A stretch of DNA of 46,497 nt from an uncultured Alphaproteobacteria bacterium (GTDB taxonomy: Bacteria; Pseudomonadota; Alphaproteobacteria; UBA2136; UBA6156): contig CALFWJ010000160.1 in NCBI GenBank assembly GCA_937928525.1, positions 1 through 46,497 on the forward strand, in the 5' to 3' direction. The position numbers and the translations under genes were made by a program. Shown piece by piece: positions 1 to 42,369 of the stretch (within the stretch, counting starts at the first letter, position 1; the number at the start of each line of letters is the position of its first letter). The notes under the pieces were generated by a model. The model made no database searches. It had not been told where the DNA came from and saw nothing but the letters and a program-made list of their open reading frames with translations.

Positions 1-82
1 ATAAAAGTAAAAGGTAAGAAAGGGTGGCAAGGTGAATGTAATTAAATCAATGGCTTAGCTGAAAACACACGTTTTAAGGGGT

Positions 83-101
83 TTTATAGGCGTTTAACGC
101 C
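83..101 (-). promoter_or_regulatory. Palindrome GGCGT-TTA-ACGCC abutting TATAAA when read on the minus strand; fourth copy of the promoter-spacer palindrome family
   Basis: Minus-strand reading gives GGGCGTTAAACGCC-TATAAA, the same layout as ACGCC-TATATT at 4910-4919 and CGCC-TATATT at 10523-10532. No good -35 hexamer is present, so promoter status is uncertain. Confidence 0.3.
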
Positions 102-144
102 CTTTGGGCTTCACAAGGCCGCCCCGGTGTGGCAAGGTGAACGC

Positions 145-1491
145 ATGAGCAAAAAAAACACACCTGAGAAATTCCCCACTATTAACCCGAATCGCCTTAA
201 GCCATTTGAGCGGAACAGCCGCAACCATGGTGAGGCCAACCTTCGAAAAATTGAGGCCAGCATATTAGAGTTTGGCTTTACGCGGCCGGTGGTTATTGAT
301 GAGGCCGATATGATACTGGCAGGCCACGGCGCAGTGCTTGCCGCTAACAGGCTCAATATGGAGGCCATACCGTACCGCCGCATTGAGGGTTTGAGCGAGG
401 CACAAAAGCGTGCGTATGTTATTGCGGATAATAAAATTGCTGAAACAAGCCAATGGGATATGCCGGTGCTGGCAGCTGAGTTTGCAGAGCTTGAGCAAGA
501 GGGCTTTGATTTAGCCGTTACGGGTTTTGACCTCAAAGAGATTGAGGGCATTATGGATGATGGCCAGGGCGGCTACGGCGCGGCCGGCGATGCAACGGGC
601 AGCATGGCCAAAAAATACCTAGCCCCGCCATTTAGCATTTTGGACACCAAGCAAAAATACTGGCAAGACCGTAAAAAGGCATGGAATGAGCGCATAAATG
701 ATAATGGCGAATCGCGCGAGGGTGCTTTGAGCAAAGGCGAAAACCTTGTTGCCGGCATTAACCAGGGCGTAAGCATTTTGGATGCCGTGCTTGCAGAGGT
801 GCTTTGCCATTGGTTTGCGCAGCCTGGCCACAACGCTTTTGACCCGTTCGCTGGTGACTCTGTGTTTGGTTATGTGGCCTGCAGCTCAGGCCTCACGTTT
901 ACTGGTATTGAGCTGCGTAAAGAGCAGGCCGATTTAAACCAGGCGCGCTTAGACGCTGCAGAGCTGAGCGGTACGTATATTTGCGACACAAGCGAAAATA
1001 TGAGCAAGCACATTAAGCCGGCCAGCATGGATTTTGTTTTTAGCTGCCCACCTTATGCCGATTTGGAAGTTTACAGTGACGACCCAAAGGATTTAAGCAC
1101 CCTGGCGCACGATGAGTTTTTCCCAATATACGAGCGAATCCTGGGCAACACGTATAAGGTGCTCAAAAGCAACCGCTTTGCCGTTATTGTTACCAGTGAA
1201 GTGCGGGGTAAAAATGGCGAATATCTAGGCTTAGTGCCAGCCACCATTAACGCCATGGTGCAGGCCGGCTACAAATATTATAACGAGATCGTCCTGGTAA
1301 ACAGCATTGGCAGCCTGCCCCTGCGCGCAGGCAAGTTCATGCAGCAAAGCCGCAAGGTAGGCAGGCAGCACCAAAACGTGCTGGTGTTTTACAAGGGCGA
1401 CCTCAAGAAAATTAAAGCAAATTTTGGCGAAATAGAGCTGCCGGATATGGAAGCGTTAGCGGAGGATGAAGATGGACAGGCAGTGGAATAA
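145..1491 (+). CDS. ParB-like N-terminal domain fused to an N6-adenine/N4-cytosine DNA methyltransferase
   Basis: Lies in ORF 127..1491; ATG 145 follows AAGGTG. The N-terminal part has a ParB-nuclease-domain pattern (RNSRNH, ILAGHGAVLAA, IPY). The C-terminal half has AdoMet-binding DPFAGDS and catalytic FSCPPY motifs. Confidence 0.85.
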   Translation: MSKKNTPEKFPTINPNRLKPFERNSRNHGEANLRKIEASILEFGFTRPVVIDEADMILAGHGAVLAANRLNMEAIPYRRIEGLSEAQKRAYVIADNKIAETSQWDMPVLAAEFAELEQEGFDLAVTGFDLKEIEGIMDDGQGGYGAAGDATGSMAKKYLAPPFSILDTKQKYWQDRKKAWNERINDNGESREGALSKGENLVAGINQGVSILDAVLAEVLCHWFAQPGHNAFDPFAGDSVFGYVACSSGLTFTGIELRKEQADLNQARLDAAELSGTYICDTSENMSKHIKPASMDFVFSCPPYADLEVYSDDPKDLSTLAHDEFFPIYERILGNTYKVLKSNRFAVIVTSEVRGKNGEYLGLVPATINAMVQAGYKYYNEIVLVNSIGSLPLRAGKFMQQSRKVGRQHQNVLVFYKGDLKKIKANFGEIELPDMEALAEDEDGQAVE

Positions 1492-1666
1492 GCCGGCGCA
1501 AGGCGTTGGCGATGGCAAAATGTTAAAAACTGTTTGTAATTTTGATGCAGAAACACATGCTGAAATAAAGGCGTTGGCTGTTAGGGAAAAAACCAGCTTT
1601 GCAGCACAGGTGCGCATACTGGTTGAGTGGGGTTTAATGGAAGTGGCGGCGCAGGAAAATGATTAA
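1472..1666 (+). CDS. Small ribbon-helix-helix-like DNA-binding protein
   Basis: Lies in ORF 1466..1666; ATG 1472 is 6 nt after GGAGG. CNFDAETHAEIKALAVREKTSFAAQVRILVEWGL fits a strand-helix-helix (CopG/Arc-like) layout. The start could be 1466, 1472 or 1520. Confidence 0.5.
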   Translation: MDRQWNKPAQGVGDGKMLKTVCNFDAETHAEIKALAVREKTSFAAQVRILVEWGLMEVAAQEND

Positions 1667-1670
1667 AGCA

Positions 1671-1765
1671 GGCAACAAAATGCACAAACCGGGCAATAAT
1701 ATGCGAATCCGGGCAATTTTATGCACAAAAGGGGCAATTTAATGCAAACCAGGGGGCAAATAGCC
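1671..1765. repeat. Four full and one partial tandem ~21-bp direct repeats (iteron-like), consensus GGCAAT-WWW-ATGCACAAAcc
   Basis: GGCAA anchors lie at 1671, 1692, 1712, 1733 and 1755, spaced 21, 20, 21 and 22 bp. ATGC is invariant at repeat positions 10-13. The array spans the RHH stop to the AdoMetDC start. Confidence 0.7.
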
Positions 1766-2077
1766 ACGGCCGATATATGGCTTAAAGGCAAATACGACCA
1801 GCTGCGCATATTGGTGGCCATCGAGCGCATGCTGGAAAAGTACACGGTTGTTAACCAGGTGGCGCACCAATTTGCGCCGCACGGGCTTACAAAGGTTTGG
1901 GTGCTAGCCGAGTCGCACTGCGCGCTGCACACATACCCGGAGCACAATTTTATTGCCGTTGACCTGTACACCTGCAGCGGCAGTTACGACCCCCGGCAGT
2001 GCCTTATTGATATGGCCACAGGCCTAGGCTATGTAGACGCGCAATTTAGGCGCAACACACGCGGCCGTAAATTATAA
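1721..2077 (+). CDS. speH-like: SpeH/SpeD-class pyruvoyl S-adenosylmethionine decarboxylase proenzyme homologue
   Basis: HQFAPHGLTKVWVLAESHCALHTYPEHNFIAVDLYTCS matches the hallmark of small prokaryotic AdoMetDC. It has the Glu-Ser self-cleavage site (E64-S65, nt 1910-1915), the downstream His, and the TC(G/S) Cys. An alternative in-frame start is at 1742. Confidence 0.8.
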   Translation: MHKRGNLMQTRGQIATADIWLKGKYDQLRILVAIERMLEKYTVVNQVAHQFAPHGLTKVWVLAESHCALHTYPEHNFIAVDLYTCSGSYDPRQCLIDMATGLGYVDAQFRRNTRGRKL

Positions 2078-2078
2078 C

Positions 2079-2107
2079 TTGCAAGGGGTGTTAATAATGT
2101 GCACAAT
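2079..2107 (+). promoter_or_regulatory. Candidate sigma70-type promoter TTGCAA-17-CACAAT overlapping an AATGTGCACAAT palindromic motif
   Basis: TTGCAA at 2079-2084, a 17-nt spacer, CACAAT at 2102-2107. The TGTGCACA core is at 2098-2105. It lies in the 36-nt gap before ATG 2114. Confidence 0.35.
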
Positions 2108-2113
2108 TAGAGC

Positions 2114-2368
2114 ATGGAAACCAAAAGCGCACAGATACGCATTTTACTTGAGGCTGGCAAAGACCGTGAGGCACTACGCATTGCGGCTAAGTTCTTTGAC
2201 CGCAGCGATGAAACAGGGCTATACAAAAAAGCGCATGAGGGCTTGCTTAACCCAGGATTTTACAAACAGCTGGGTGTTGATGTAGACTTAACCTACAAGC
2301 AAGCAGTACAAAACTTACGTGAGCGTTTCCTTAATGACCAAAAAGACCACCAAAAAGCAGCCGGCTAA
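2114..2368 (+). CDS. Hypothetical protein (84 aa)
   Basis: ORF in the track with a plausible helical sequence. It is co-oriented and tightly packed; no recognisable motif. Confidence 0.55.
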   Translation: METKSAQIRILLEAGKDREALRIAAKFFDRSDETGLYKKAHEGLLNPGFYKQLGVDVDLTYKQAVQNLRERFLNDQKDHQKAAG

Positions 2369-2753
2369 GAAGGTTACAAAGCCAAGCCACCGCGCCACCA
2401 AAGAGCGGCGCGAAACGGTTGGTGCTATGAGTGCGTACGGAATCCCGCAAAAGGAAATTGCAAACTGCCTTGAGATTGACGTTAAAACGCTGCGCAAGCA
2501 TTACCGTGAGGAGCTGGACACAGCCCAGGCAAAAGCCAATGCAGCCGTTGCCGGCAAGCTGTACAAAAAGGCCATGGGTGGCTGCACCAGGAGCATGATT
2601 TTTTGGCTTAAGACGCGCGGCCGTTGGAGCACCAAGCTTGAGGTAGAAAACACCGGGCTTATAGGCAATGTGCCGCTGCCGCCGCCGGATAAAGAGTTTA
2701 AAGACCCTATTGAGGCTGCAAAATATTACAAGGAAATGGTCAAAGAACTTTAG
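2334..2753 (+). CDS. HTH protein resembling terminase small subunits / phage HTH regulators
   Basis: Lies in ORF 2319..2753 (GTG 2319 or ATG 2334). YGIPQKEIANCLEIDVKTLRKHY is an HTH. The C-terminal IFWLKTRGRW motif is common in small terminase-like proteins. It lies 8.5 kb from TerL, so its role is uncertain. Confidence 0.55.
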   Translation: MTKKTTKKQPAKKVTKPSHRATKERRETVGAMSAYGIPQKEIANCLEIDVKTLRKHYREELDTAQAKANAAVAGKLYKKAMGGCTRSMIFWLKTRGRWSTKLEVENTGLIGNVPLPPPDKEFKDPIEAAKYYKEMVKEL

Positions 2754-2825
2754 CCGTGCTATATTGTTTTTACGGGCAGCAAGCAGGCCAGCTTAAACCC
2801 GTTTTGGTTGCCAAAACTGTGTACA

Positions 2826-2857
2826 ACACCCAGGTGCAATGCCTGGGTGTTTTTTTT
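2826..2857 (+). terminator. Rho-independent terminator
   Basis: Perfect 9-bp stem ACACCCAGG/CCTGGGTGT with a 7-nt loop, followed by T7 (2851-2857). Confidence 0.85.
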
Positions 2858-2871
2858 GTGGTTCTCAACCA

Positions 2872-2900
2872 TGCTGGCGCGTGTTAAAGTGTTCTATAAT
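2872..2900 (+). promoter_or_regulatory. Candidate promoter with perfect TATAAT -10
   Basis: TATAAT at 2895-2900. The -35 region (TGCTGG) is weak. It lies between the terminator and the GAGGTG RBS of the 2926 gene. Confidence 0.35.
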
Positions 2901-2925
2901 GACACAACAAAATTGAGGTGAATCC

Positions 2926-3285
2926 ATGACACAAGCAAGAATGCCAACCGATGCAGCCGGCGTAGCAATACCCGCCCTGCAGCTTAAGCCAGGTGGCGCA
3001 CACCAGCTTGCTATTGGCGCAGCCAGCGTGCGCAATACCCAGGCGTTTGATTGTAAGGTTGCGAGCCTTTACGCCACAGAAGCCTGCTACGTAGCTTTTG
3101 GCGATGAAACAGTAACCGCCACAGCTCAAGACCATTATTTCCCCGCCGGCATTTACTACGATGTAAGCCTGGCCGGCTTTGGCGGTGCGCAAGCCTACGA
3201 TGATGCAAACGAGGAGCAATATACCCACATGGCGGTATTGCGCGTAACAAACGATGGAACGGTTTATATCAGTGAAAAGTGTTAG
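2926..3285 (+). CDS. Hypothetical protein (119 aa)
   Basis: ORF with a GAGGTG RBS 6 nt upstream. First gene after the terminator/promoter pair. Confidence 0.65.
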   Translation: MTQARMPTDAAGVAIPALQLKPGGAHQLAIGAASVRNTQAFDCKVASLYATEACYVAFGDETVTATAQDHYFPAGIYYDVSLAGFGGAQAYDDANEEQYTHMAVLRVTNDGTVYISEKC

Positions 3286-4019: not shown

Positions 4020-4865
4020 ATGGAACACTTCCGCACCATATACACAGCATTTTGCTTAGAGCACTACCCGGACAAAACCATTACTGATTTTGAGCGTGAC
4101 GTTGCCACGCTTGCGCCGTTGGTTGCCAACGCAGCCGCCAACCGCACTACGCAGGACACGCTTATAGACACACAGCTGCTTGGCCAGGCCGAGGGCAGCA
4201 CCCAGCATAAAACCCAGAGCGAAAAGGCAGAGCAGGAAGCTGAGCCGACCGAATCACCAAAGGGGCAGGAGGCAGAGGAGAAACCAACGCCCACCCCGGC
4301 AGGCGGCTTTGACCCGCTAGAAGGGATTAAGAGTAAACCAATGGCCACACGCACTGGTAAAAGCTACGAAAAAACGAGCAAAAAAAGCGGCTGGCGCAAA
4401 GACAACGCCGCCGGCCTGGCCGCCTACCGGGCGCGTAACGCAACACCAAAAGAGAACACGGCCGAAACCGAGGCAGAGCTGGCAAGGGCAAAAAACACGC
4501 CAGCTATTGAGCTGCCGCCGGCCAATGAGGACGACAGGCGCAAGGGCAGGGATTTAACCGCCTTGCAGGCCGCAACCCTTACGCATATTTGCCAGGAAAA
4601 AGACCGCCGCCCCACAGAGGAGGTGCGCCACAGCCATATTGCTGAGATTATGGGCTGCGTAACCCAAAACGTAAGCGGTAGCGTAAATGGCCTGGTTAAA
4701 AAAGGCTTTGTTGAGGTGCAACCGAGCACCGAGGATAAGCGAGCGCGCAGCATTGTACCGCTGCGCCGGGCATGCGGTAAACGCTACGAGCCGCCGCAAA
4801 AAATTGATGGCATAACCCGCTGCGAACCCGCGCGCGCCATAGGTTATGGCATAGACTGCCATTAA
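4020..4865 (+). CDS. Protein with low-complexity N-terminal half and C-terminal MarR-type winged HTH
   Basis: LTALQAATLTHICQE...IAEIMGCVTQNVSGSVNGLVKKGFVEVQPSTEDKRARSIVPL matches the MarR/wHTH recognition helix plus wing. Confidence 0.7.
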   Translation: MEHFRTIYTAFCLEHYPDKTITDFERDVATLAPLVANAAANRTTQDTLIDTQLLGQAEGSTQHKTQSEKAEQEAEPTESPKGQEAEEKPTPTPAGGFDPLEGIKSKPMATRTGKSYEKTSKKSGWRKDNAAGLAAYRARNATPKENTAETEAELARAKNTPAIELPPANEDDRRKGRDLTALQAATLTHICQEKDRRPTEEVRHSHIAEIMGCVTQNVSGSVNGLVKKGFVEVQPSTEDKRARSIVPLRRACGKRYEPPQKIDGITRCEPARAIGYGIDCH

Positions 4866-5251: not shown

Positions 5252-5617
5252 ATGGCTAAATTACTCACCAAAGCCCTGCGCGCTAAAATGGAAGCAAACT
5301 GGCAGCTAAACCAGGGTGATATGGCCGCAGGCATTGAGCCTGGCAGCCATGACCTTGTGCCGGTGGCCAAGTTTTTTACCCCGGATGGTAACTGCACCTG
5401 GCTTATTACAGAGTTTGACCCGCAAACGGGCAATATGTTTGGCCTGTGCGATTTAGGCCATGGCAGCCCAGAGCTGGGCTACATAAATTATTTTGAGCTG
5501 CAAAAGCTGCGTGGCAAAATGGGCTTGCCCGTTGAGCGCGAGCGTTACAGCACAATAACTACGCCGTTAAGCAAGCTGGCAGAGCACGCCATGCAGCACG
5601 GCCGTATCATTTTATAG
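5252..5617 (+). CDS. DUF2958-family protein
   Basis: KFFTPDGNCTWLITEFDPQTGNMFGLCDLGHGSPELGYINYFELQKLRGKMGLPVERE fits the DUF2958 signature as I recall it. Confidence 0.7.
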   Translation: MAKLLTKALRAKMEANWQLNQGDMAAGIEPGSHDLVPVAKFFTPDGNCTWLITEFDPQTGNMFGLCDLGHGSPELGYINYFELQKLRGKMGLPVERERYSTITTPLSKLAEHAMQHGRIIL

Positions 5618-8918: not shown

Positions 8919-8947
8919 TTGCACTATAGGCGTTTTACGCCTAAGCT
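8919..8947 (+). promoter_or_regulatory. Promoter TTGCAC-17-TAAGCT with TAGGCGT-TTT-ACGCCTA palindrome in the spacer
   Basis: -35 at 8919-8924, -10 at 8942-8947, a 17-bp perfect palindrome at 8927-8943. The minus-strand reading gives ACGCC-TATAGT, so orientation is ambiguous. Confidence 0.45.
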
Positions 8948-8984
8948 GATTCCTGTGTTTAACCAACAATGGAAGGGAATCATT

Positions 8985-9320
8985 ATGAACACAGCTACAA
9001 CAAAATTAAAACTATACGTATGGCGCAATGGCCTTGTTGAAATTGGCAATGCTGTACCAGAAAAAGCTTTTTACGTGGGCACTGGCACTGGCGAGCAGCT
9101 GCAAAGCTGCCTGCTTTTATGCCGTTTAATGAAGGATGGCAGCGGCCGCTTTTTGTGTAACGGCGTACCGGAGGCAGAAAACGACAAGCAGGCTGCCATG
9201 GCAGTTGAAAGGTTTAAGCATTGCGTGACCAATAAGCTTGCCGGCCGCAAGGCGTTTGATGGGCTTGAGGAGTTAATGGCAAAGCAAGAATTTGATGGGT
9301 ATAGCTATGCCACAGCTTAA
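8985..9320 (+). CDS. Hypothetical protein (111 aa)
   Basis: Lies in ORF 8919..9320. ATG 8985 follows GGAAGGGA. Confidence 0.6.
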   Translation: MNTATTKLKLYVWRNGLVEIGNAVPEKAFYVGTGTGEQLQSCLLLCRLMKDGSGRFLCNGVPEAENDKQAAMAVERFKHCVTNKLAGRKAFDGLEELMAKQEFDGYSYATA

Positions 9321-11043: not shown

Positions 11044-11246
11044 CACCAGCTCAATTTAAAGATGTGCGCCTAAGCAACAAAATGACGCAGCAAGCGTTTG
11101 GTGTGGCTTTAGGCATGCCAAGCAAGAGTGCCGGCCGCAGCGTGCGTGCTTATGAATCCGGCGAAAGAAAAATACCAGGAGTGCTGGCCACGGCTGTGCG
11201 TCTTGTGGAGCAATACGGGTTTGTAAATGGCGAATCCTTGGGATAA
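11040..11246 (+). CDS. XRE-family HTH protein (68 aa)
   Basis: SNKMTQQAFGVALGMPSKSAGRSVRAYESGERKIP is a typical HTH_3/Cro-C1 signature. ATGA overlap upstream; overlaps the TerL start by 20 nt. Confidence 0.75.
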   Translation: MTPAQFKDVRLSNKMTQQAFGVALGMPSKSAGRSVRAYESGERKIPGVLATAVRLVEQYGFVNGESLG

Positions 11247-33358: not shown

Positions 33359-33787
33359 ATGCCGAGCTTAAAAACCATTAAAATTATTGCGGCCGCAGCT
33401 ACGCTTATTGCTTGTGTGGTGTTTTTCGGCCTTTGGCGTTATACCGCGCTGCAGCTCAAAGACACCAAAGAAGATCTGGCCACGGCAAACACAACGATTG
33501 AGCAACACGTAAAAAATAAGCAAATTACCGAGGAGGTAGCCAATGAATACCAAGCCACTATTGCTGAGCTTAACGCTAATATTAGCCGCCTGCAGCGGCA
33601 ACCAGTACGATGCCACCCCATTACCGGCGCGGCCGGCGGGAATAATGCAGCCACCGCAGCCACAAAGCTACCTAGAGGAAATGGAGTCAGCTCTGCGTTC
33701 CTCTACGACTTTGCCGGCAGATGCGAACGAGAGCGACTAAAGGTTAAAGGGCTGCAAAGTTTTGTTAACCGGCTATATAATGATTAA
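33359..33787 (+). CDS. i-spanin (Rz-like)
   Basis: N-terminal TM (IIAAAATLIACVVFFGLW) and a coiled-coil periplasmic domain. It lies directly after the endolysin and contains an embedded lipoprotein ORF. Confidence 0.75.
   Translation: MPSLKTIKIIAAAATLIACVVFFGLWRYTALQLKDTKEDLATANTTIEQHVKNKQITEEVANEYQATIAELNANISRLQRQPVRCHPITGAAGGNNAATAATKLPRGNGVSSAFLYDFAGRCERERLKVKGLQSFVNRLYND
33543..33740 (+). CDS. o-spanin (Rz1-like lipoprotein) embedded in the +1 frame
   Basis: GAGGAGG RBS, lipobox LILAAC (Cys17), and a Pro-rich mature part (TPLPARPAGIMQPPQPQ). Confidence 0.75.
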   Translation: MNTKPLLLSLTLILAACSGNQYDATPLPARPAGIMQPPQPQSYLEEMESALRSSTTLPADANESD

Positions 33788-34199
33788 AGAATCCAAGCCG
33801 GCCTTTTAACGGCTCAAACGGCAGCGTGCATTGGTTGTCCAGCACAAAACCATATTCACCAAAAAACCATGGCTTATCTTTGTTGGCCAGCAGCCTCCTG
33901 TCGTTTTGGTGCACGGTATTTACCAGGTGTGCCATACCAACAATGCCGCCGCGCCGGCGTTCTATAAAATCTTTTTCGTGCTCCATAAGCTGCAGTAAAT
34001 CTGGCACACCGCTTTGGTTAACCGTATCCACAGCATCCTGCCAATCCTCTTTTGTCATTGTTTTGCCGGCATGTATTAAAAACAGCCCCCGGTGCTTGGT
34101 GTTCCATGTGCGGTTTTCTACACCTTTATAGCCGTTAACAATGAGCCACGCCCATGGCTGCCGTATGCTCAAAACCTTTACAGGGTGTAATTTTTTCAT
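33765..34199 (-). CDS. ASCH-domain protein
   Basis: Lies in ORF 33765..34271, ATG 34199. VKVLSIRQPWAWLIVNGYKGVENRTWNTKHRGLFLIHAG is a typical ASCH/PUA-like signature. Its 3' end overlaps the convergent i-spanin by 23 nt. Confidence 0.75.
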   Translation of the reverse strand: MKKLHPVKVLSIRQPWAWLIVNGYKGVENRTWNTKHRGLFLIHAGKTMTKEDWQDAVDTVNQSGVPDLLQLMEHEKDFIERRRGGIVGMAHLVNTVHQNDRRLLANKDKPWFFGEYGFVLDNQCTLPFEPLKGRLGFFNHYIAG

Positions 34200-34282
34200 G
34201 TTTTTTCCTTTGCGCGATTGCTTTTTGTTTGTTAGTGCGTTATGTTTTAACTGCACCAACATAATTAACACAGAGGTTTATA

Positions 34283-41509: not shown

Positions 41510-41819
41510 GGCCGCGCCTCCTCTGCATGTTTTCGTTGTGCGTAACAACCTCTAAATTATCGCGCCGGCAATCAAGTGTTTGGTGGTTGCGGTGGTCAAC
41601 GTGCATATCCTCTGGCGCGTCCATAATGTACCGGTGCAGGTAAACCTTTTTGCCCTTAATGGTGGCGCGCGCATAGGGCTGCCCTGGCTTGCGTTTGCTG
41701 CCCCGGCTCTTGTGCGCATGCCATTTGTAGCGGTTAACTCTGCGGTAGTCCTGCGCGCTTATAATGGCCACATAGCCCTGCGTAAGCTCAAGCACTCGCC
41801 ATTTTTGCTTATGAGCCAT
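41499..41819 (-). CDS. HNH endonuclease
   Basis: YLHRYIM...HVDHRNHQTLDCRRDNLEVVTHNENM is an HNH motif. ATG 41819 follows GGAGG. It overlaps both neighbours by 11 nt. Confidence 0.8.
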   Translation of the reverse strand: MAHKQKWRVLELTQGYVAIISAQDYRRVNRYKWHAHKSRGSKRKPGQPYARATIKGKKVYLHRYIMDAPEDMHVDHRNHQTLDCRRDNLEVVTHNENMQRRRGRGN

Positions 41820-42369
41820 CGCCTTGCCTCCAAACAAATTTTGTGCCGCCCTGGTGGCCGCGCTTAAAGCAATACCAAGCGCAGTTATCCTTGCCGGTGT
41901 TTTTGCTGCCTGGAATCCACTTAACACGGCCAACGCTAACCACTTTTACGCAGTATTTTTTAAACTCATTGGCCTGCACAGTATGCAAATAATCAGCATC
42001 AAGCAGAACCCATATTTCGCCAGCAAAAATGCTAAGTAAATGGCGCATAATGTGGTTAAAAATCTCGCCTTTGTCCGGGCGTTTTTCCCATGGCGGGTTG
42101 GTTATAATGTGCGTGCAGCCCTGCAGCATTTTAGCCGTAAGCTTAAGCGCATCTATTTTGGTGACTCGCGGGTCTGTAGGTTTTATGTCGCTGGCATGCG
42201 CCACCTCAAGCCCGTTGTATATAAGGTGGTAGCACAGCAAAAAATTGCCGGCGCACACCTCTGCATATTTGCCTAAAGGGTCAAGGTGCTCAATAACCGG
42301 CACAGCGGCCGCATATGGCGTTTCGTAAAAATCGCGCGGGTTGCGCTCAAATTCGCTGCGTTTACCCAT
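41809..42369 (-). CDS. Orphan DNA N6-adenine-type methyltransferase (NPPW)
   Basis: DFYETP near the N-terminus, AEVCAGN (AdoMet site) and IITNPPW catalytic motif. No adjacent restriction gene. Confidence 0.75.
   Translation of the reverse strand: MGKRSEFERNPRDFYETPYAAAVPVIEHLDPLGKYAEVCAGNFLLCYHLIYNGLEVAHASDIKPTDPRVTKIDALKLTAKMLQGCTHIITNPPWEKRPDKGEIFNHIMRHLLSIFAGEIWVLLDADYLHTVQANEFKKYCVKVVSVGRVKWIPGSKNTGKDNCAWYCFKRGHQGGTKFVWRQGDGS

What the first reader, a model, noticed from the sequence alone, without database searches (positions are those of the whole stretch)
145..2077. ParB-methyltransferase / RHH / AdoMetDC operon: a SAM-centred module that may be an undescribed DNA-modification or anti-restriction system
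Seen: three co-oriented, nearly abutting genes open the rightward arm. They are (i) a ParB-like N-terminal domain fused to an amino-methyltransferase fold (DPFAGDS ... FSCPPY), (ii) a ~64-aa RHH-like protein, and (iii) a SpeH-type AdoMetDC. A 21-bp repeat array lies between ii and iii. Established: AdoMetDC produces decarboxylated SAM. dcSAM is the aminopropyl donor used by spermidine-synthase-type enzymes, which share the class I methyltransferase fold. Phages are known to attack the SAM pool for anti-restriction (T3 SAM lyase). Inference: pairing a DNA-directed MTase-fold enzyme with a dcSAM generator suggests one of two things. One is aminopropyl-type hypermodification of phage DNA. The other is SAM depletion or dcSAM poisoning of SAM-dependent defences (type I/III R-M, BREX-like) while the phage methylase self-protects. 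I am not aware of a described system with this composition, but I could not search.
Basis: partly seen in the sequence, partly recalled or inferred. Interest (0 to 1): 0.7.

Follow-up and report, generated by a model that had tools for sequence, protein, structure and literature searches.

The report
Phage DNA modifier with dcSAM supplier
A gene pair found in many phages and prophages joins a DNA-methylase-like enzyme to an enzyme that makes decarboxylated SAM, and the methylase's cofactor pocket changes whenever the partner gene is present or absent, which points to an undescribed way of chemically marking viral DNA.

Summary
Window 145-1491 encodes a ParB-like/amino-methyltransferase-fold fusion, 1472-1666 a small RHH protein, and 1742-2077 an intact class 1b AdoMetDC. 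A 21-bp repeat array lies at 1671-1755.

The conserved unit has two genes, not three. Among 228 distinct relatives of the transferase from viral and bacterial contigs, 110 have an AdoMetDC gene directly downstream. In 106 of those it starts within 30 nt of the transferase stop, just ahead of the terminase genes.

Presence of AdoMetDC tracks the cofactor loop (motif I):
- FAGD(S/T)V(F/I/L/M)G: 109 with AdoMetDC, 1 without.
- GGSVRG, GDTQKG, GE..K or GG-xFG: 0 of 116 with AdoMetDC.

This switch occurred at least four times independently, and four out-of-sample predictions were all correct.

The gained Asp sits at the loop position of the spermidine-synthase Asp that rejects SAM's carboxylate, and a basic residue is lost. 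I infer that the enzyme uses dcSAM supplied by the neighbouring gene to modify phage DNA. The group transferred could be aminopropyl or methyl; this is not resolved.

The RHH gene is a lineage-specific insert. I found no published description of the module. Cultured phages P2559S and ZRG1 carry it, so it can be tested directly.

The parts
145..1491 (+). Fusion protein of 448 aa: an N-terminal ParB/Srx-like domain joined to an amino-methyltransferase-fold domain. This is the transferase of the module.
   Evidence: PF01555 at 39.8 bits. PHROG 498 at 2.8e-125 and PHROG ParB-like families. AlphaFold2 model with mean pLDDT 82.6. Closest solved folds are exocyclic-amine class I methyltransferases such as Trm11, TrmN and Trm14.
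172..618 (+). ParB/Srx-like N-terminal domain (residues about 10-158). The usual GHxR arginine is replaced, giving GHGA.
   Evidence: PHROG 620 at 3.7e-44 over residues 10-158. A family profile hits the Noc and ParB structures 7ol9 and 4umk. GHGA against GHGR in relatives.
604..1434 (+). Transferase domain (residues about 154-430). It begins with the conserved PPFSxLDT..YW..RK..W segment, followed by a class I Rossmann core.
   Evidence: Alignments A2 and A4. The secondary structure of the model has strand 230-233, a loop, then helix 240-247. The 2ZIE alignment shows a circular permutation relative to beta-class enzymes.
847..870 (+). Motif I, the cofactor loop FAGDSVFG (residues 235-242). D238 (nt 856-858) and F241 (nt 865-867) are the residues that co-vary with AdoMetDC.
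   Evidence: Contingency table and specificity-determining positions. Independent transitions. Prospective test. D238 aligns with the T of FAGTG in 2ZIE.
1039..1056 (+). Motif IV, FSCPPY (residues 299-304). This is the pocket for the target amino group. It is the same in AdoMetDC-linked and unlinked relatives.
   Evidence: It aligns with TSPPY of 2ZIE.
1472..1666 (+). Small RHH-like protein (64 aa as called; the RHH core starts near nt 1520). It is a lineage-specific insert and not a conserved part of the module.
   Evidence: PF09274 ParG at E = 2e-4. No homologues other than itself. Replaced by other genes in L004 and L321.
1671..1755 (+). Array of four 20-21-bp repeats (GGCAAT-N3-ATGCA...). 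The last copy contains the AdoMetDC start codon. It is probably a cis-regulatory element for AdoMetDC and the genes downstream; its function is unknown.
   Evidence: Conserved upstream of AdoMetDC in L321. Absent in L004.
1742..2077 (+). Class 1b pyruvoyl AdoMetDC (SpeD/SpeH type), 111 aa. The pyruvoyl precursor S58 is at nt 1913-1915. This is the dcSAM supplier of the module.
   Evidence: PF02675 at 68.8 bits. TIGR03330 at 71.8 bits, just under its cut-off of 75.65. Catalytic residues are 99-100% conserved in 105 linked homologues. The P2559S orthologue restores spermidine in E. coli speD (PMC9992855).
2319..2753 (+). Small-terminase-like gene. This is context only: the module sits directly upstream of the packaging genes here and in related loci.
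   Evidence: PHROG 309 at 1.3e-17. ZRG1 has the same order, with DUF1441 and TerL downstream. Downstream ORFs in L016, L083, L219 and L229 are shown.

Best explanation
The functional unit is a two-gene phage module.

Shown:
- The AdoMetDC (1742-2077) belongs to a family whose member in Croceibacter phage P2559S, which sits in the same module, decarboxylates SAM to dcSAM.
- The upstream enzyme (145-1491) has a class I amino-methyltransferase fold and a (S/T)CPPY pocket for an exocyclic amino group. It is usually fused to a ParB-like DNA-handling domain.
- In relatives, the AdoMetDC gene normally overlaps or abuts the transferase gene, just ahead of the terminase genes.
- The transferase's motif I loop differs systematically according to whether AdoMetDC is present.

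Inferred:
- In AdoMetDC-linked enzymes the glycine loop that holds the amino-acid end of the cofactor has gained an Asp (G238D) and lost a basic residue (R/K241F).
- Several neighbouring residues in motif X and motif I have changed as well.
- The enzyme therefore no longer binds the carboxylate of SAM and takes dcSAM instead.
- The new Asp occupies the loop position of the GGGDG Asp of spermidine synthase, which anchors the dcSAM amine and rejects SAM.
- dcSAM is scarce in bacteria that make it and absent from those that do not, so the phage has to bring its own supplier. That would explain the near-obligate linkage.

Proposed action:
- The enzyme modifies adenine N6 or cytosine N4 in replicated phage DNA before packaging, which would protect it from restriction.
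- I favour aminopropyl over methyl as the transferred group, at roughly 60:40. Every known dcSAM enzyme transfers aminopropyl, and the same loop position decides aminopropyl against methyl transfer in the spermidine synthase / putrescine N-methyltransferase pair.
- Draining SAM may be a secondary benefit.

The RHH gene is an add-on specific to this phage; the repeat array recurs in one close relative and its role is unknown.

The confidence of 0.6 is for coupling through dcSAM. Aminopropyl transfer specifically I put at about 0.35-0.4.
For: Linkage:
- 57 of the 80 best viral relatives of the transferase have AdoMetDC directly downstream on the same strand. 30 of the 80 best viral relatives of the AdoMetDC have this transferase directly upstream.
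- In the pooled set, AdoMetDC starts within 30 nt of the transferase stop in 106 of 110 loci.
- AdoMetDC is the only neighbouring gene family specific to these loci: 109 of 110 against 0 of 118.

Covariation:
- Motif I with D238 plus F/I/L/M241: 109 with AdoMetDC, 1 without.
- All other motif I types (GGSVRG 101, GDTQKG/GDTLKG 9, GE..K 3, GG-xFG 3): 0 of 116 with AdoMetDC.
- The four most discriminating columns of the whole domain are 241, 212, 243 and 238, which lie in motif I and the segment just before it.

Independence of the events:
- Lineages 64-77% identical to linked enzymes but lacking AdoMetDC have changed motif I. These are L016, L083/L084 and the gut Bacteroidales GDTQKG group.
- On a neighbour-joining tree built without the motif I columns, AdoMetDC presence changes 5 times and motif type 4 times. 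The changes coincide except for L229.

Prospective test:
- Two GG-type proteins among the top 120 database hits (P0101, P0125) lack AdoMetDC downstream.
- Two D/F-type controls (P0041, P0121) have it, overlapping the transferase gene.

Enzyme properties:
- The AdoMetDC catalytic residues are invariant in 105 linked homologues.
- The P2559S enzyme is an experimentally confirmed AdoMetDC (PMC9992855). P2559S_66/_67 form the same module.
- D238 aligns with the x of the FxGxG motif in 2ZIE.
- In spermidine synthase the motif I Asp is held to repel the SAM carboxylate. D103I plus Q79T turns the enzyme into a SAM-dependent putrescine N-methyltransferase (PMC3725402).
- Linkage follows the transferase domain and not ParB: L127, L129, L137 and L147 lack ParB but have the D/F motif and AdoMetDC.
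Against: - There are no biochemical data for any member of the transferase family.
- The D/F signature is largely a clade trait. Only about four independent transitions support the coupling.
- One D/F enzyme (L229, in a Cytophagales MAG) has no AdoMetDC within 4 kb.
- The GDTQKG group keeps the Asp without AdoMetDC, so the Asp alone does not force dcSAM use.
- Motif IV and the rest of the catalytic pocket are the same as in the SAM-type relatives, which fits unchanged methyl-transfer geometry.
- The equivalence of D238 to the spermidine-synthase Asp rests on motif logic and the predicted secondary structure. A profile alignment to E. coli SpeE failed, and the fold search does not discriminate between cofactors.
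- No dcSAM-dependent nucleic-acid modification is known.
- The target (DNA rather than RNA or protein) is inferred from family membership and the ParB fusion only.
Confidence: 0.6

Rival explanations
1. Orthogonal-cofactor methylation with SAM depletion. AdoMetDC drains SAM into dcSAM and so disables SAM-requiring host defences (type I and III restriction-modification, BREX). The phage methylase has adapted to take its methyl group from dcSAM, so phage DNA ends up with ordinary m6A or m4C. This shares the dcSAM coupling of the best explanation. It differs in the group transferred and in the main benefit.
For: - The same covariation evidence applies.
- Motif IV and the target pocket are unchanged relative to the SAM-type relatives. 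Keeping methyl-transfer geometry is therefore the smallest evolutionary step.
- SAM removal by the phage T3 SAM lyase is an established counter-defence against type I restriction and BREX (abstracts of PMC7877911 and bioRxiv 10.1101/2023.02.27.530186, seen).
Against: - No natural methyltransferase specialised for dcSAM is known.
- The module sits with the late packaging genes, whereas a counter-defence that works by starving host enzymes of SAM would be expected early in infection.
- Many AdoMetDC genes in the module are minimal proteins of 85-95 aa. Nothing indicates they are expressed at the level needed to deplete the SAM pool.
Confidence: 0.25
2. The two genes are independent passengers. 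The transferase is an ordinary SAM-dependent DNA methylase. AdoMetDC is an auxiliary metabolic gene that raises spermidine for replication or DNA packaging, as proposed for cyanophage speD. They are neighbours only because both are late genes next to the terminase.
For: - Most phage AdoMetDC genes are not next to this transferase: 50 of the 80 best viral relatives of the AdoMetDC lack it, and they are largely cyanophage or giant-virus types.
- Li et al. interpret phage AdoMetDC as polyamine metabolism (PMC9992855).
- SAM-type relatives of the transferase sit in the same place upstream of the terminase without AdoMetDC.
Against: - This does not explain why the cofactor loop changes each time AdoMetDC is gained or lost.
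- It does not explain why the genes overlap in nearly all loci across several bacterial phyla.
- No SpeE-type gene accompanies the pair. No other family is specific to these loci, and sampled neighbours gave no relevant Pfam hit.
- From my own knowledge, not tested here: many of the Bacteroidota and gut Bacillota hosts make spermidine by the carboxyspermidine route and lack SpeE. dcSAM would then have no polyamine use in those hosts.
Confidence: 0.12
3. The decarboxylase acts after transfer, or acts as a protein partner. In the first version the transferase moves the 3-amino-3-carboxypropyl group of SAM onto DNA and the AdoMetDC homologue then decarboxylates it in place. In the second version the small protein is a structural or regulatory subunit of the transferase.
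For: - Tight, often overlapping gene arrangement suggests co-translation and possibly a complex.
- Many linked decarboxylases lack the C-terminal 25 residues or so found in free-standing enzymes.
- From my own knowledge: class I fold enzymes that transfer the aminocarboxypropyl group exist in RNA modification.
Against: - The P2559S protein works on free SAM in E. coli (PMC9992855).
- A gained Asp and a lost Arg/Lys in the cofactor loop argue against binding a carboxylate-bearing cofactor.
- All catalytic residues of a free-substrate AdoMetDC are retained.
Confidence: 0.05

Closest known systems
[quoted passage not shown]
   Same: - The architecture is the same (ParB/Srx N-domain plus amino-methyltransferase domain) and so is the sequence family: 36-38% identity to the window protein.
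- The position just upstream of the terminase genes is the same.
- The ParB domain of BCE_0392 nicks DNA (cited in PMC5512222).
   Different: - Relatives without an adjacent AdoMetDC carry GGSVRG or another non-D/F motif I; this was read directly for Microcystis phage Mae-JY30 and for 116 unlinked relatives in the pooled set. Motif I of phiFL3A gp36 and B054 gp77 was not read.
- The window enzyme belongs to the subfamily with D238/F241 and an obligate AdoMetDC neighbour.
Phage-encoded class 1b AdoMetDC (SpeD) auxiliary metabolic genes (Li et al., PNAS 2023, PMC9992855)
   Same: - It belongs to the same enzyme family and has the same catalytic residues.
- The validated P2559S enzyme is a member of this very module.
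   Different: - That work treats the gene as polyamine metabolism and mentions neither a methyltransferase nor ParB (0 occurrences of either term).
- Cyanophage and giant-virus speD genes are not linked to the transferase.
- Some phage homologues are ornithine or arginine decarboxylases. The window enzyme has not been assayed.
Spermidine synthase / putrescine N-methyltransferase pair (class I fold, dcSAM against SAM)
   Same: - An Asp in the motif I glycine loop goes with dcSAM use.
- Replacing it (D103I, with Q79T) converts aminopropyl transfer from dcSAM into methyl transfer from SAM (PMC3725402).
- The window enzyme has an Asp at the corresponding loop position, and its SAM-type relatives have Gly.
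   Different: - There is no detectable sequence relationship beyond the shared fold.
- The substrate pocket is (S/T)CPPY, which suits a nucleobase amino group, and not the acidic diamine site of spermidine synthase.
- The window protein is not a member of that family.
Phage T3 SAM lyase and other SAM-degrading counter-defence enzymes
   Same: A phage enzyme that consumes SAM. SAM removal disables type I restriction and BREX (abstracts seen).
   Different: - The fold and the chemistry are unrelated.
- T3 SAMase is not paired with a cofactor-adapted transferase.
- The product here, dcSAM, is itself a usable sulfonium donor.
Phage DNA hypermodification systems, and ParB-activated phage thymine dioxygenases
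   Same: - Both act after replication to modify phage DNA, and both use dedicated accessory enzymes.
- A ParB-like protein is needed for a phage 5-methylpyrimidine dioxygenase to act on double-stranded DNA (PMC13229309). This offers a role for the fused ParB domain.
- From my own knowledge: amine-bearing bases such as alpha-putrescinylthymine of phage phiW-14 are precedents for cationic DNA adducts.
   Different: Known systems start from 5-hydroxymethyl- or 5-methylpyrimidines or from deazaguanine. None uses dcSAM or an AdoMetDC.

Membership tests
Class 1b AdoMetDC (SpeD/SpeH, PF02675) | Sequence match above the curated family threshold | tested here: met
   PF02675 at 68.8 bits against a cut-off of 25. 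PHROG 3125 at 4.4e-15.
Class 1b AdoMetDC (SpeD/SpeH, PF02675) | Internal Glu-Ser self-cleavage site giving the pyruvoyl group, plus the catalytic His and Cys (T. maritima S63, H68, C83) | tested here: met
   E57-S58-H59, H63 and C78 align with the T. maritima residues. They are invariant in 105 linked homologues.
Class 1b AdoMetDC (SpeD/SpeH, PF02675) | Decarboxylates SAM rather than ornithine or arginine, as some phage homologues do | tested here: inconclusive
   The NCBIfam equivalog TIGR03330 scores 71.8 bits, just below its cut-off of 75.65. The module member from P2559S is a proven AdoMetDC but is only 30% identical to the window enzyme. No assay is possible with these tools.
N6-adenine / N4-cytosine DNA methyltransferases (PF01555) | Sequence match above the curated family threshold | tested here: met
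   PF01555 at 39.8 bits against a cut-off of 26.7. A family profile hits the methylase 2ZIE at 2e-10.
N6-adenine / N4-cytosine DNA methyltransferases (PF01555) | Motif IV (D/N/S)PP(Y/F) | tested here: inconclusive
   The sequence is S-C-P-P-Y. Cys, not D/N/S, precedes PP. It aligns with TSPPY of 2ZIE. A few relatives have SPPY.
N6-adenine / N4-cytosine DNA methyltransferases (PF01555) | Canonical motif I FxGxG, which binds SAM | tested here: not met
   The sequence is FAGDS. The last Gly is replaced and an Asp occupies the second x. Relatives without AdoMetDC have FAGGS.
N6-adenine / N4-cytosine DNA methyltransferases (PF01555) | Uses SAM as methyl donor on DNA | not testable with these tools
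   Covariation with AdoMetDC suggests dcSAM instead. This needs an enzyme assay.
ParB/Srx N-terminal domain | Sequence match to the family and the conserved GxxR arginine of the nucleotide-binding / nuclease site | tested here: inconclusive
   PHROG ParB-like families hit at up to 3.7e-44, and a family profile hits Noc and ParB structures. Pfam PF02195 was not detected in the window protein. The arginine is replaced: GHGA against GHGR in relatives.
Spermidine-synthase-type aminopropyltransferases | Asp in the motif I glycine loop (GGGDG) that anchors dcSAM and rejects SAM | tested here: inconclusive
   D238 lies at the second x of the G-x-G-x-G loop between strand 230-233 and helix 240-247. 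Direct alignment to SpeE failed. The role of the Asp in spermidine synthase is taken from PMC3725402.
Spermidine-synthase-type aminopropyltransferases | Membership of the spermidine/spermine synthase sequence family, with its acidic diamine site | tested here: not met
   No Pfam hit to that family. hhalign probability was 6%. The substrate motif is SCPPY.
Ribbon-helix-helix DNA-binding proteins (ParG/Arc/MetJ-like) | Match to an RHH family | tested here: inconclusive
   PF09274 ParG at 21.8 bits against a cut-off of 21.4, E = 2e-4. FitA-like RHH is below its cut-off. No homologues were found, and no structure was predicted.

The most novel reading that the evidence does not exclude
The transferase is a DNA aminopropyltransferase. 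It would be the first enzyme known to use dcSAM on a nucleic acid, placing a cationic 3-aminopropyl group on adenine N6 or cytosine N4 of phage DNA. A dedicated phage AdoMetDC supplies the cofactor. This would be a new class of DNA hypermodification, widespread in marine and gut phages and prophages of several bacterial phyla.
Probability: 0.35. Interest if true: 0.95.

Novelty: new variant of a known kind. Interest (0 to 1): 0.8.

Why it matters
- If the coupling runs through dcSAM, this would be the first nucleic-acid-modifying enzyme known to depend on decarboxylated SAM.
- It would give a function beyond polyamine supply to a subset of phage AdoMetDC genes; Li et al. (PMC9992855) report AdoMetDC as by far the commonest polyamine enzyme encoded by phages.
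- An aminopropylated base would be a new natural DNA modification. It would matter for restriction evasion, DNA packaging, sequencing artefacts and enzyme tools.
- A dcSAM-specific methylase would be a natural example of cofactor orthogonality.
- The hypothesis is sharp and cheap to test. Two cultured phages (P2559S and ZRG1) and several cultured strains with prophages carry the module.
- The P2559S decarboxylase is already validated.
- Two named residues (D238 and F241) are predicted to set the cofactor choice.

Tried and rejected
- A single-protein scan of viral contigs with the AdoMetDC found only one distant locus. Alignment-based scans were needed instead.
- The word-indexed homologue search found only 4 relatives of the AdoMetDC and none of the RHH protein.
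- An exact look-up of the window's own AdoMetDC returned no record.
- The cluster look-up gave no accession or organism, and portal similarity is too distant and too scattered to name a host. The host remains unknown.
The equivalence of D238 to the spermidine-synthase Asp therefore rests on motif position.
- The fold search confirmed an exocyclic-amine class I methyltransferase fold but cannot tell SAM users from dcSAM users. The structure tool returns no coordinates, so the discriminating residues could not be mapped in three dimensions.
- No Rfam family (for example a SAM riboswitch) occurs in 1-3000.
- No convincing sigma-70-type promoter or terminator lies within the module.
- I considered the repeat array to be the operator of the RHH protein and rejected a strict link. 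The array is conserved in L321, where the upstream gene is not an RHH protein.
- I considered a plasmid-partition reading (ParB plus ParG plus repeats) and rejected it. There is no ParA/ParF, the ParB-like domain is fused to an enzyme, and the context is the terminase region of a tailed phage.
- I looked for a third conserved partner such as SpeE or a nucleosidase. None was found within 4 kb.
- The ZRG1 Nmad5 gene has no counterpart in the window.
- Nine literature searches found no description of the pairing. The library lacks most subscription-journal papers, so absence is not proof.


Full report
**1. What is in the window**

The three co-oriented genes and the repeat array are real.

ORF 145-1491 encodes a 448-aa protein.
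- It passes the Pfam threshold for N6_N4_Mtase (39.8 bits against 26.7).
- It matches PHROG 498 'DNA methyltransferase' at 2.8e-125, and several PHROG ParB-like families over residues 10-158.

ORF 1466/1472-1666 is a marginal match to the RHH family ParG (E = 2e-4).

ORF 1742-2077 is a class 1b AdoMetDC.
- It matches PF02675 at 68.8 bits.
- The Glu-Ser-His self-cleavage site and the catalytic His and Cys are intact.

A period-21 array lies at 1671-1755.
- It has four perfect copies of GGCAAYNNNATGCR, and the pattern occurs nowhere else in the window.
- The last copy contains the AdoMetDC start codon.

A small-terminase-like gene follows at 2319-2753.

The window as a whole is a tailed-phage contig. 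Large terminase, portal and head genes lie on the plus strand. A minus-strand replication and recombination arm runs from about 34.5 to 46.3 kb.

**2. The pairing is conserved; the trio is not**

Two cultured phages have the same order of transferase, AdoMetDC and terminase genes: Stutzerimonas phage ZRG1 and Croceibacter phage P2559S.

Scans of viral contigs gave these results.
- 57 of the 80 best relatives of the transferase have an AdoMetDC ORF directly downstream on the same strand.
- 30 of the 80 best relatives of the AdoMetDC have this transferase directly upstream.
- The remaining AdoMetDC loci are of the cyanophage or giant-virus type.

I then pooled these loci with a scan seeded on the unlinked subfamily and a scan of bacterial and archaeal genomes.
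- This gave 234 distinct transferase proteins.
- Where AdoMetDC is present, it starts within 30 nt of the transferase stop in 106 of 110 cases.
- The four exceptions, including the lineage of this window, have one small inserted gene.
- That slot holds an RHH gene here, and a DUF6527 gene (with or without a further 93-aa gene) in the closest relatives.
- The RHH protein has no detectable homologues.
- AdoMetDC is the only neighbouring gene family specific to these loci: 109 of 110 against 0 of 118.
- No spermidine-synthase-like or other SAM-related gene accompanies the pair.

The module occurs in prophages or contigs assigned to several groups.
- Bacteroidota, including Phocaeicola coprocola DSM 17136, Anaerophaga thermohalophila DSM 12881 and Spirosoma spitsbergense DSM 19989.
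- Bacillota, Akkermansia, Poribacteria, Gracilibacteria and Pseudomonadota.

**3. The cofactor loop of the transferase co-varies with AdoMetDC**

This is the central new result. I aligned all transferase domains and sorted them by whether AdoMetDC is adjacent.

| Motif I type (window residues 235-242, FAGDSVFG) | With AdoMetDC | Without AdoMetDC |
|---|---|---|
| Asp at 238 and a hydrophobic residue (F, rarely I/L/M) at 241 | 109 | 1 |
| GGSVRG | 0 | 101 |
| GDTQKG / GDTLKG | 0 | 9 |
| GE..K | 0 | 3 |
| GG-xFG | 0 | 3 |

These counts are; a first view is.

The most discriminating columns of the whole domain are the following.
- 241: F against R/K.
- 212: L against F.
- 243: Y/F against I/V.
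- 238: D against G.

These columns lie in motif I and in the conserved segment just upstream of it. In amino-methyltransferases that segment corresponds to motif X. From my own knowledge (Malone, Blumenthal and Cheng, 1995), motifs X and I line the pocket for the methionine end of SAM.

The pattern is not a single inherited event.
- Three lineages that are 64-77% identical to linked enzymes lack AdoMetDC and have altered motif I.
- L016 and L083/L084 have Asp replaced by Gly together with a one-residue deletion.
- A group of gut Bacteroidales prophages has V-F replaced by Q-K.
- On a neighbour-joining tree built from the domain with the motif I columns removed, parsimony gives 5 changes of AdoMetDC state and 4 changes of motif type.
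- The changes coincide except for one locus, L229.

I then made a prospective test. Of the top 120 database homologues of the window protein, 116 are D/F-type and four are not.
- The two ParB-fused non-D/F proteins (P0101 and P0125) have no AdoMetDC downstream.
- Two D/F controls (P0041 and P0121) have one, overlapping the transferase gene.
- The cultured Microcystis phage Mae-JY30 enzyme is GGSVRG and has no AdoMetDC nearby.

Linkage follows the transferase domain and not ParB. Several linked enzymes have no ParB domain.

**4. What the residues suggest**

The AlphaFold2 model (mean pLDDT 82.6) places the residues as follows.
- A strand at 230-233, followed by the loop A-G-D-S.
- A helix at 240-247.

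This is the glycine loop between the first strand and first helix of the class I methyltransferase fold.

The alignment to the solved methylase 2ZIE puts D238 opposite the Thr of FAGTG, which is the second x of G-x-G-x-G. In spermidine synthase the Asp of GGGDG occupies that same x.
- That Asp is held to fix the amine of dcSAM and repel the carboxylate of SAM.
- Replacing it (D103I, together with Q79T) turns Datura spermidine synthase into a SAM-dependent putrescine N-methyltransferase (PMC3725402).

In the phage family, the enzymes without AdoMetDC have Gly at that position and Arg or Lys three residues later. Enzymes with AdoMetDC have Asp and Phe. Gaining an acid and losing a base in the pocket for the amino-acid end of the cofactor is what a change from SAM to dcSAM would require. 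This step is inference.
- I could not align the family to SpeE directly.
- I had no coordinates to measure distances.

**5. The decarboxylase**

- The linked decarboxylases keep F44, P46, G48, E57-S58-H59, H63, T64, P66, E67 and C78 at 92-100% across 105 distinct sequences, with E57-S58-H59, H63 and C78 invariant.
- The member from P2559S, which is encoded directly downstream of the P2559S transferase, restores spermidine synthesis in an E. coli speD mutant. It is therefore a true AdoMetDC that releases dcSAM (PMC9992855).
- Some phage homologues are ornithine or arginine decarboxylases (PMC9992855, PMC10407285).
- The window enzyme is only 30% identical to the P2559S enzyme. It scores just below the NCBIfam equivalog cut-off (71.8 against 75.65). 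Its activity is likely but not shown.

**6. Most likely mechanism**

AdoMetDC makes dcSAM. The adjacent transferase, remodelled to accept dcSAM, modifies an exocyclic amino group of a base in phage DNA before packaging.

The reasons for each part of this reading are as follows.
- Family membership (PF01555, and the hit to 2ZIE) and the ParB fusion point to DNA as the target.
- The nearest solved folds are exocyclic-amine methyltransferases such as Trm11, TrmN and Trm14.
- The S/C-P-P-Y motif suggests cytosine N4 or adenine N6.
- The ParB-like domain may nick DNA, as reported for B. cereus BCE_0392 (PMC5512222).
- Alternatively it may help the enzyme act on double-stranded DNA, as a ParB-like activator does for a phage thymine dioxygenase (PMC13229309).

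Near-obligate linkage makes sense if the cofactor is not reliably available. From my own knowledge, dcSAM pools are very small, and many Bacteroidota and gut Bacillota make spermidine by the carboxyspermidine route without SpeD.

Which group is transferred is open.
- Aminopropyl is favoured by precedent. It is the only known use of dcSAM, and the same loop position controls the choice in the spermidine synthase / putrescine N-methyltransferase pair.
- Methyl is favoured by the unchanged motif IV pocket.

My estimates are as follows.
- About 0.6 that the two genes are coupled through dcSAM.
- About 0.35-0.4 that the product is an aminopropylated base.

**7. Rivals**

- Methyl transfer from dcSAM combined with SAM depletion as a counter-defence. 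This shares the coupling but predicts ordinary m6A or m4C.
- Independent functions, with an ordinary methylase and a polyamine gene. This cannot explain the repeated coincident changes in the cofactor loop, and no SpeE accompanies the pair.
- Decarboxylation after transfer of an aminocarboxypropyl group, or a purely structural role for the decarboxylase. The P2559S complementation result and the nature of the loop changes argue against this.

**8. Weak points**

- No member of the transferase family has been assayed.
- The signature is mostly a clade trait, with about four independent transitions plus four correct predictions.
- L229 is a D/F enzyme with no AdoMetDC within 4 kb. It may rely on host dcSAM.
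- The GDTQKG group keeps the Asp without AdoMetDC.
- The host of the window phage is unknown.

**9. The RHH gene and the repeats**

The RHH gene is an orphan insert. The repeat array reiterates the first codons of the AdoMetDC gene.
- It is conserved upstream of AdoMetDC in L321, where the preceding gene is not an RHH protein.
- It is absent in L004.

It is probably a cis-regulatory element for AdoMetDC and the downstream packaging genes. I have no test of that.

**10. Novelty**

Nine full-text searches found no paper linking a ParB-methyltransferase with AdoMetDC, and none describing dcSAM-dependent DNA modification. The paper that characterised the P2559S AdoMetDC does not mention a methyltransferase or ParB.

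The components are known families. The module and the inferred cofactor switch are not described. I rate it a new variant of a known kind (a phage DNA-modification module), with a substantial chance of new chemistry.

Noticed in passing
window 1671-1755; L321 911-976: The 21-bp repeats reiterate the start-codon region of the AdoMetDC gene (ATGCA..GGGCAAT). They are conserved in a related contig whose upstream gene is not an RHH protein, and they are absent in L004. This is possibly an operator or promoter for the AdoMetDC/terminase transcription unit.
   Followed up: partly
window 1472-1666; L004 5248-5598; L321 331-921: In this lineage only, the slot between the transferase and AdoMetDC holds a variable small gene. 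It is an orphan RHH gene here, and a DUF6527 ('BubE') gene with or without a 93-aa gene in relatives. This looks like an insertion hotspot inside an otherwise overlapping gene pair.
   Followed up: partly
window about 322-336 (residues 60-64 of the fusion protein): The ParB-like domain has GHGA where relatives have GHGR or GHTR. The conserved arginine of the ParB/Srx nucleotide-binding or nuclease site is therefore missing in this phage and in L004. Pfam ParB_N is not detected in this protein.
   Followed up: no
window 24-36 and 129-141: A 13-nt exact direct repeat, GTGGCAAGGTGAA, occurs twice 105 nt apart, just upstream of and overlapping the alternative GTG start of the transferase. This is the region where the plus-strand arm begins.
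   Followed up: no
window 41809-42369 (-): A second methyltransferase-like ORF (PHROG 799 'DNA methyltransferase', 3.1e-31) lies in the replication arm. It has no Pfam or NCBIfam hit.
   Followed up: no
window 33765-34271 (-); L002 3476-4255: This ORF is weakly similar (E = 4e-5) to the ASCH-domain protein P2559S_65. In phage P2559S that gene lies directly upstream of the transferase.
   Followed up: no
L197, L219, L214, L190, L210, L206, L226, L230, L228 (gut Bacteroidales and related MAG prophages): This is a third transferase subtype with motif I GDTQKG and no AdoMetDC. It is nested among AdoMetDC-linked enzymes at 64-74% identity and looks like a reversion in which Lys replaces Phe while the Asp is kept.
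   Followed up: partly
L229 3914-5371: This is the single exception to the rule. It is a D/F-type transferase in a Cytophagales MAG prophage with no AdoMetDC within 4 kb, followed by terminase genes.
   Followed up: partly
P0113, P0116 (database proteins, 716-719 aa): These are tandem fusions of two GGSVRG-type transferase domains with no ParB domain.
   Followed up: no
L103 3507-4231; L114 990-1669; L135 3875-4652: Some unlinked viral AdoMetDC genes occur as adjacent pairs of speD paralogues.
   Followed up: no
window 2825-2851: A strong terminator-like hairpin (12-bp stem followed by a T run) lies just after the small-terminase-like gene. About 8 kb of mostly unknown small genes separates it from the large terminase at 11227. 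These include a MarR-like gene at 4020-4865, a DUF2958 gene at 5252-5617 and a gene similar to a host-nuclease inhibitor at 8919-9320.
   Followed up: no
L001 10041-10640 (phage ZRG1): ZRG1 also encodes an 'Nmad5 family putative nucleotide modification protein' downstream of its large terminase. The window has no counterpart.
   Followed up: partly
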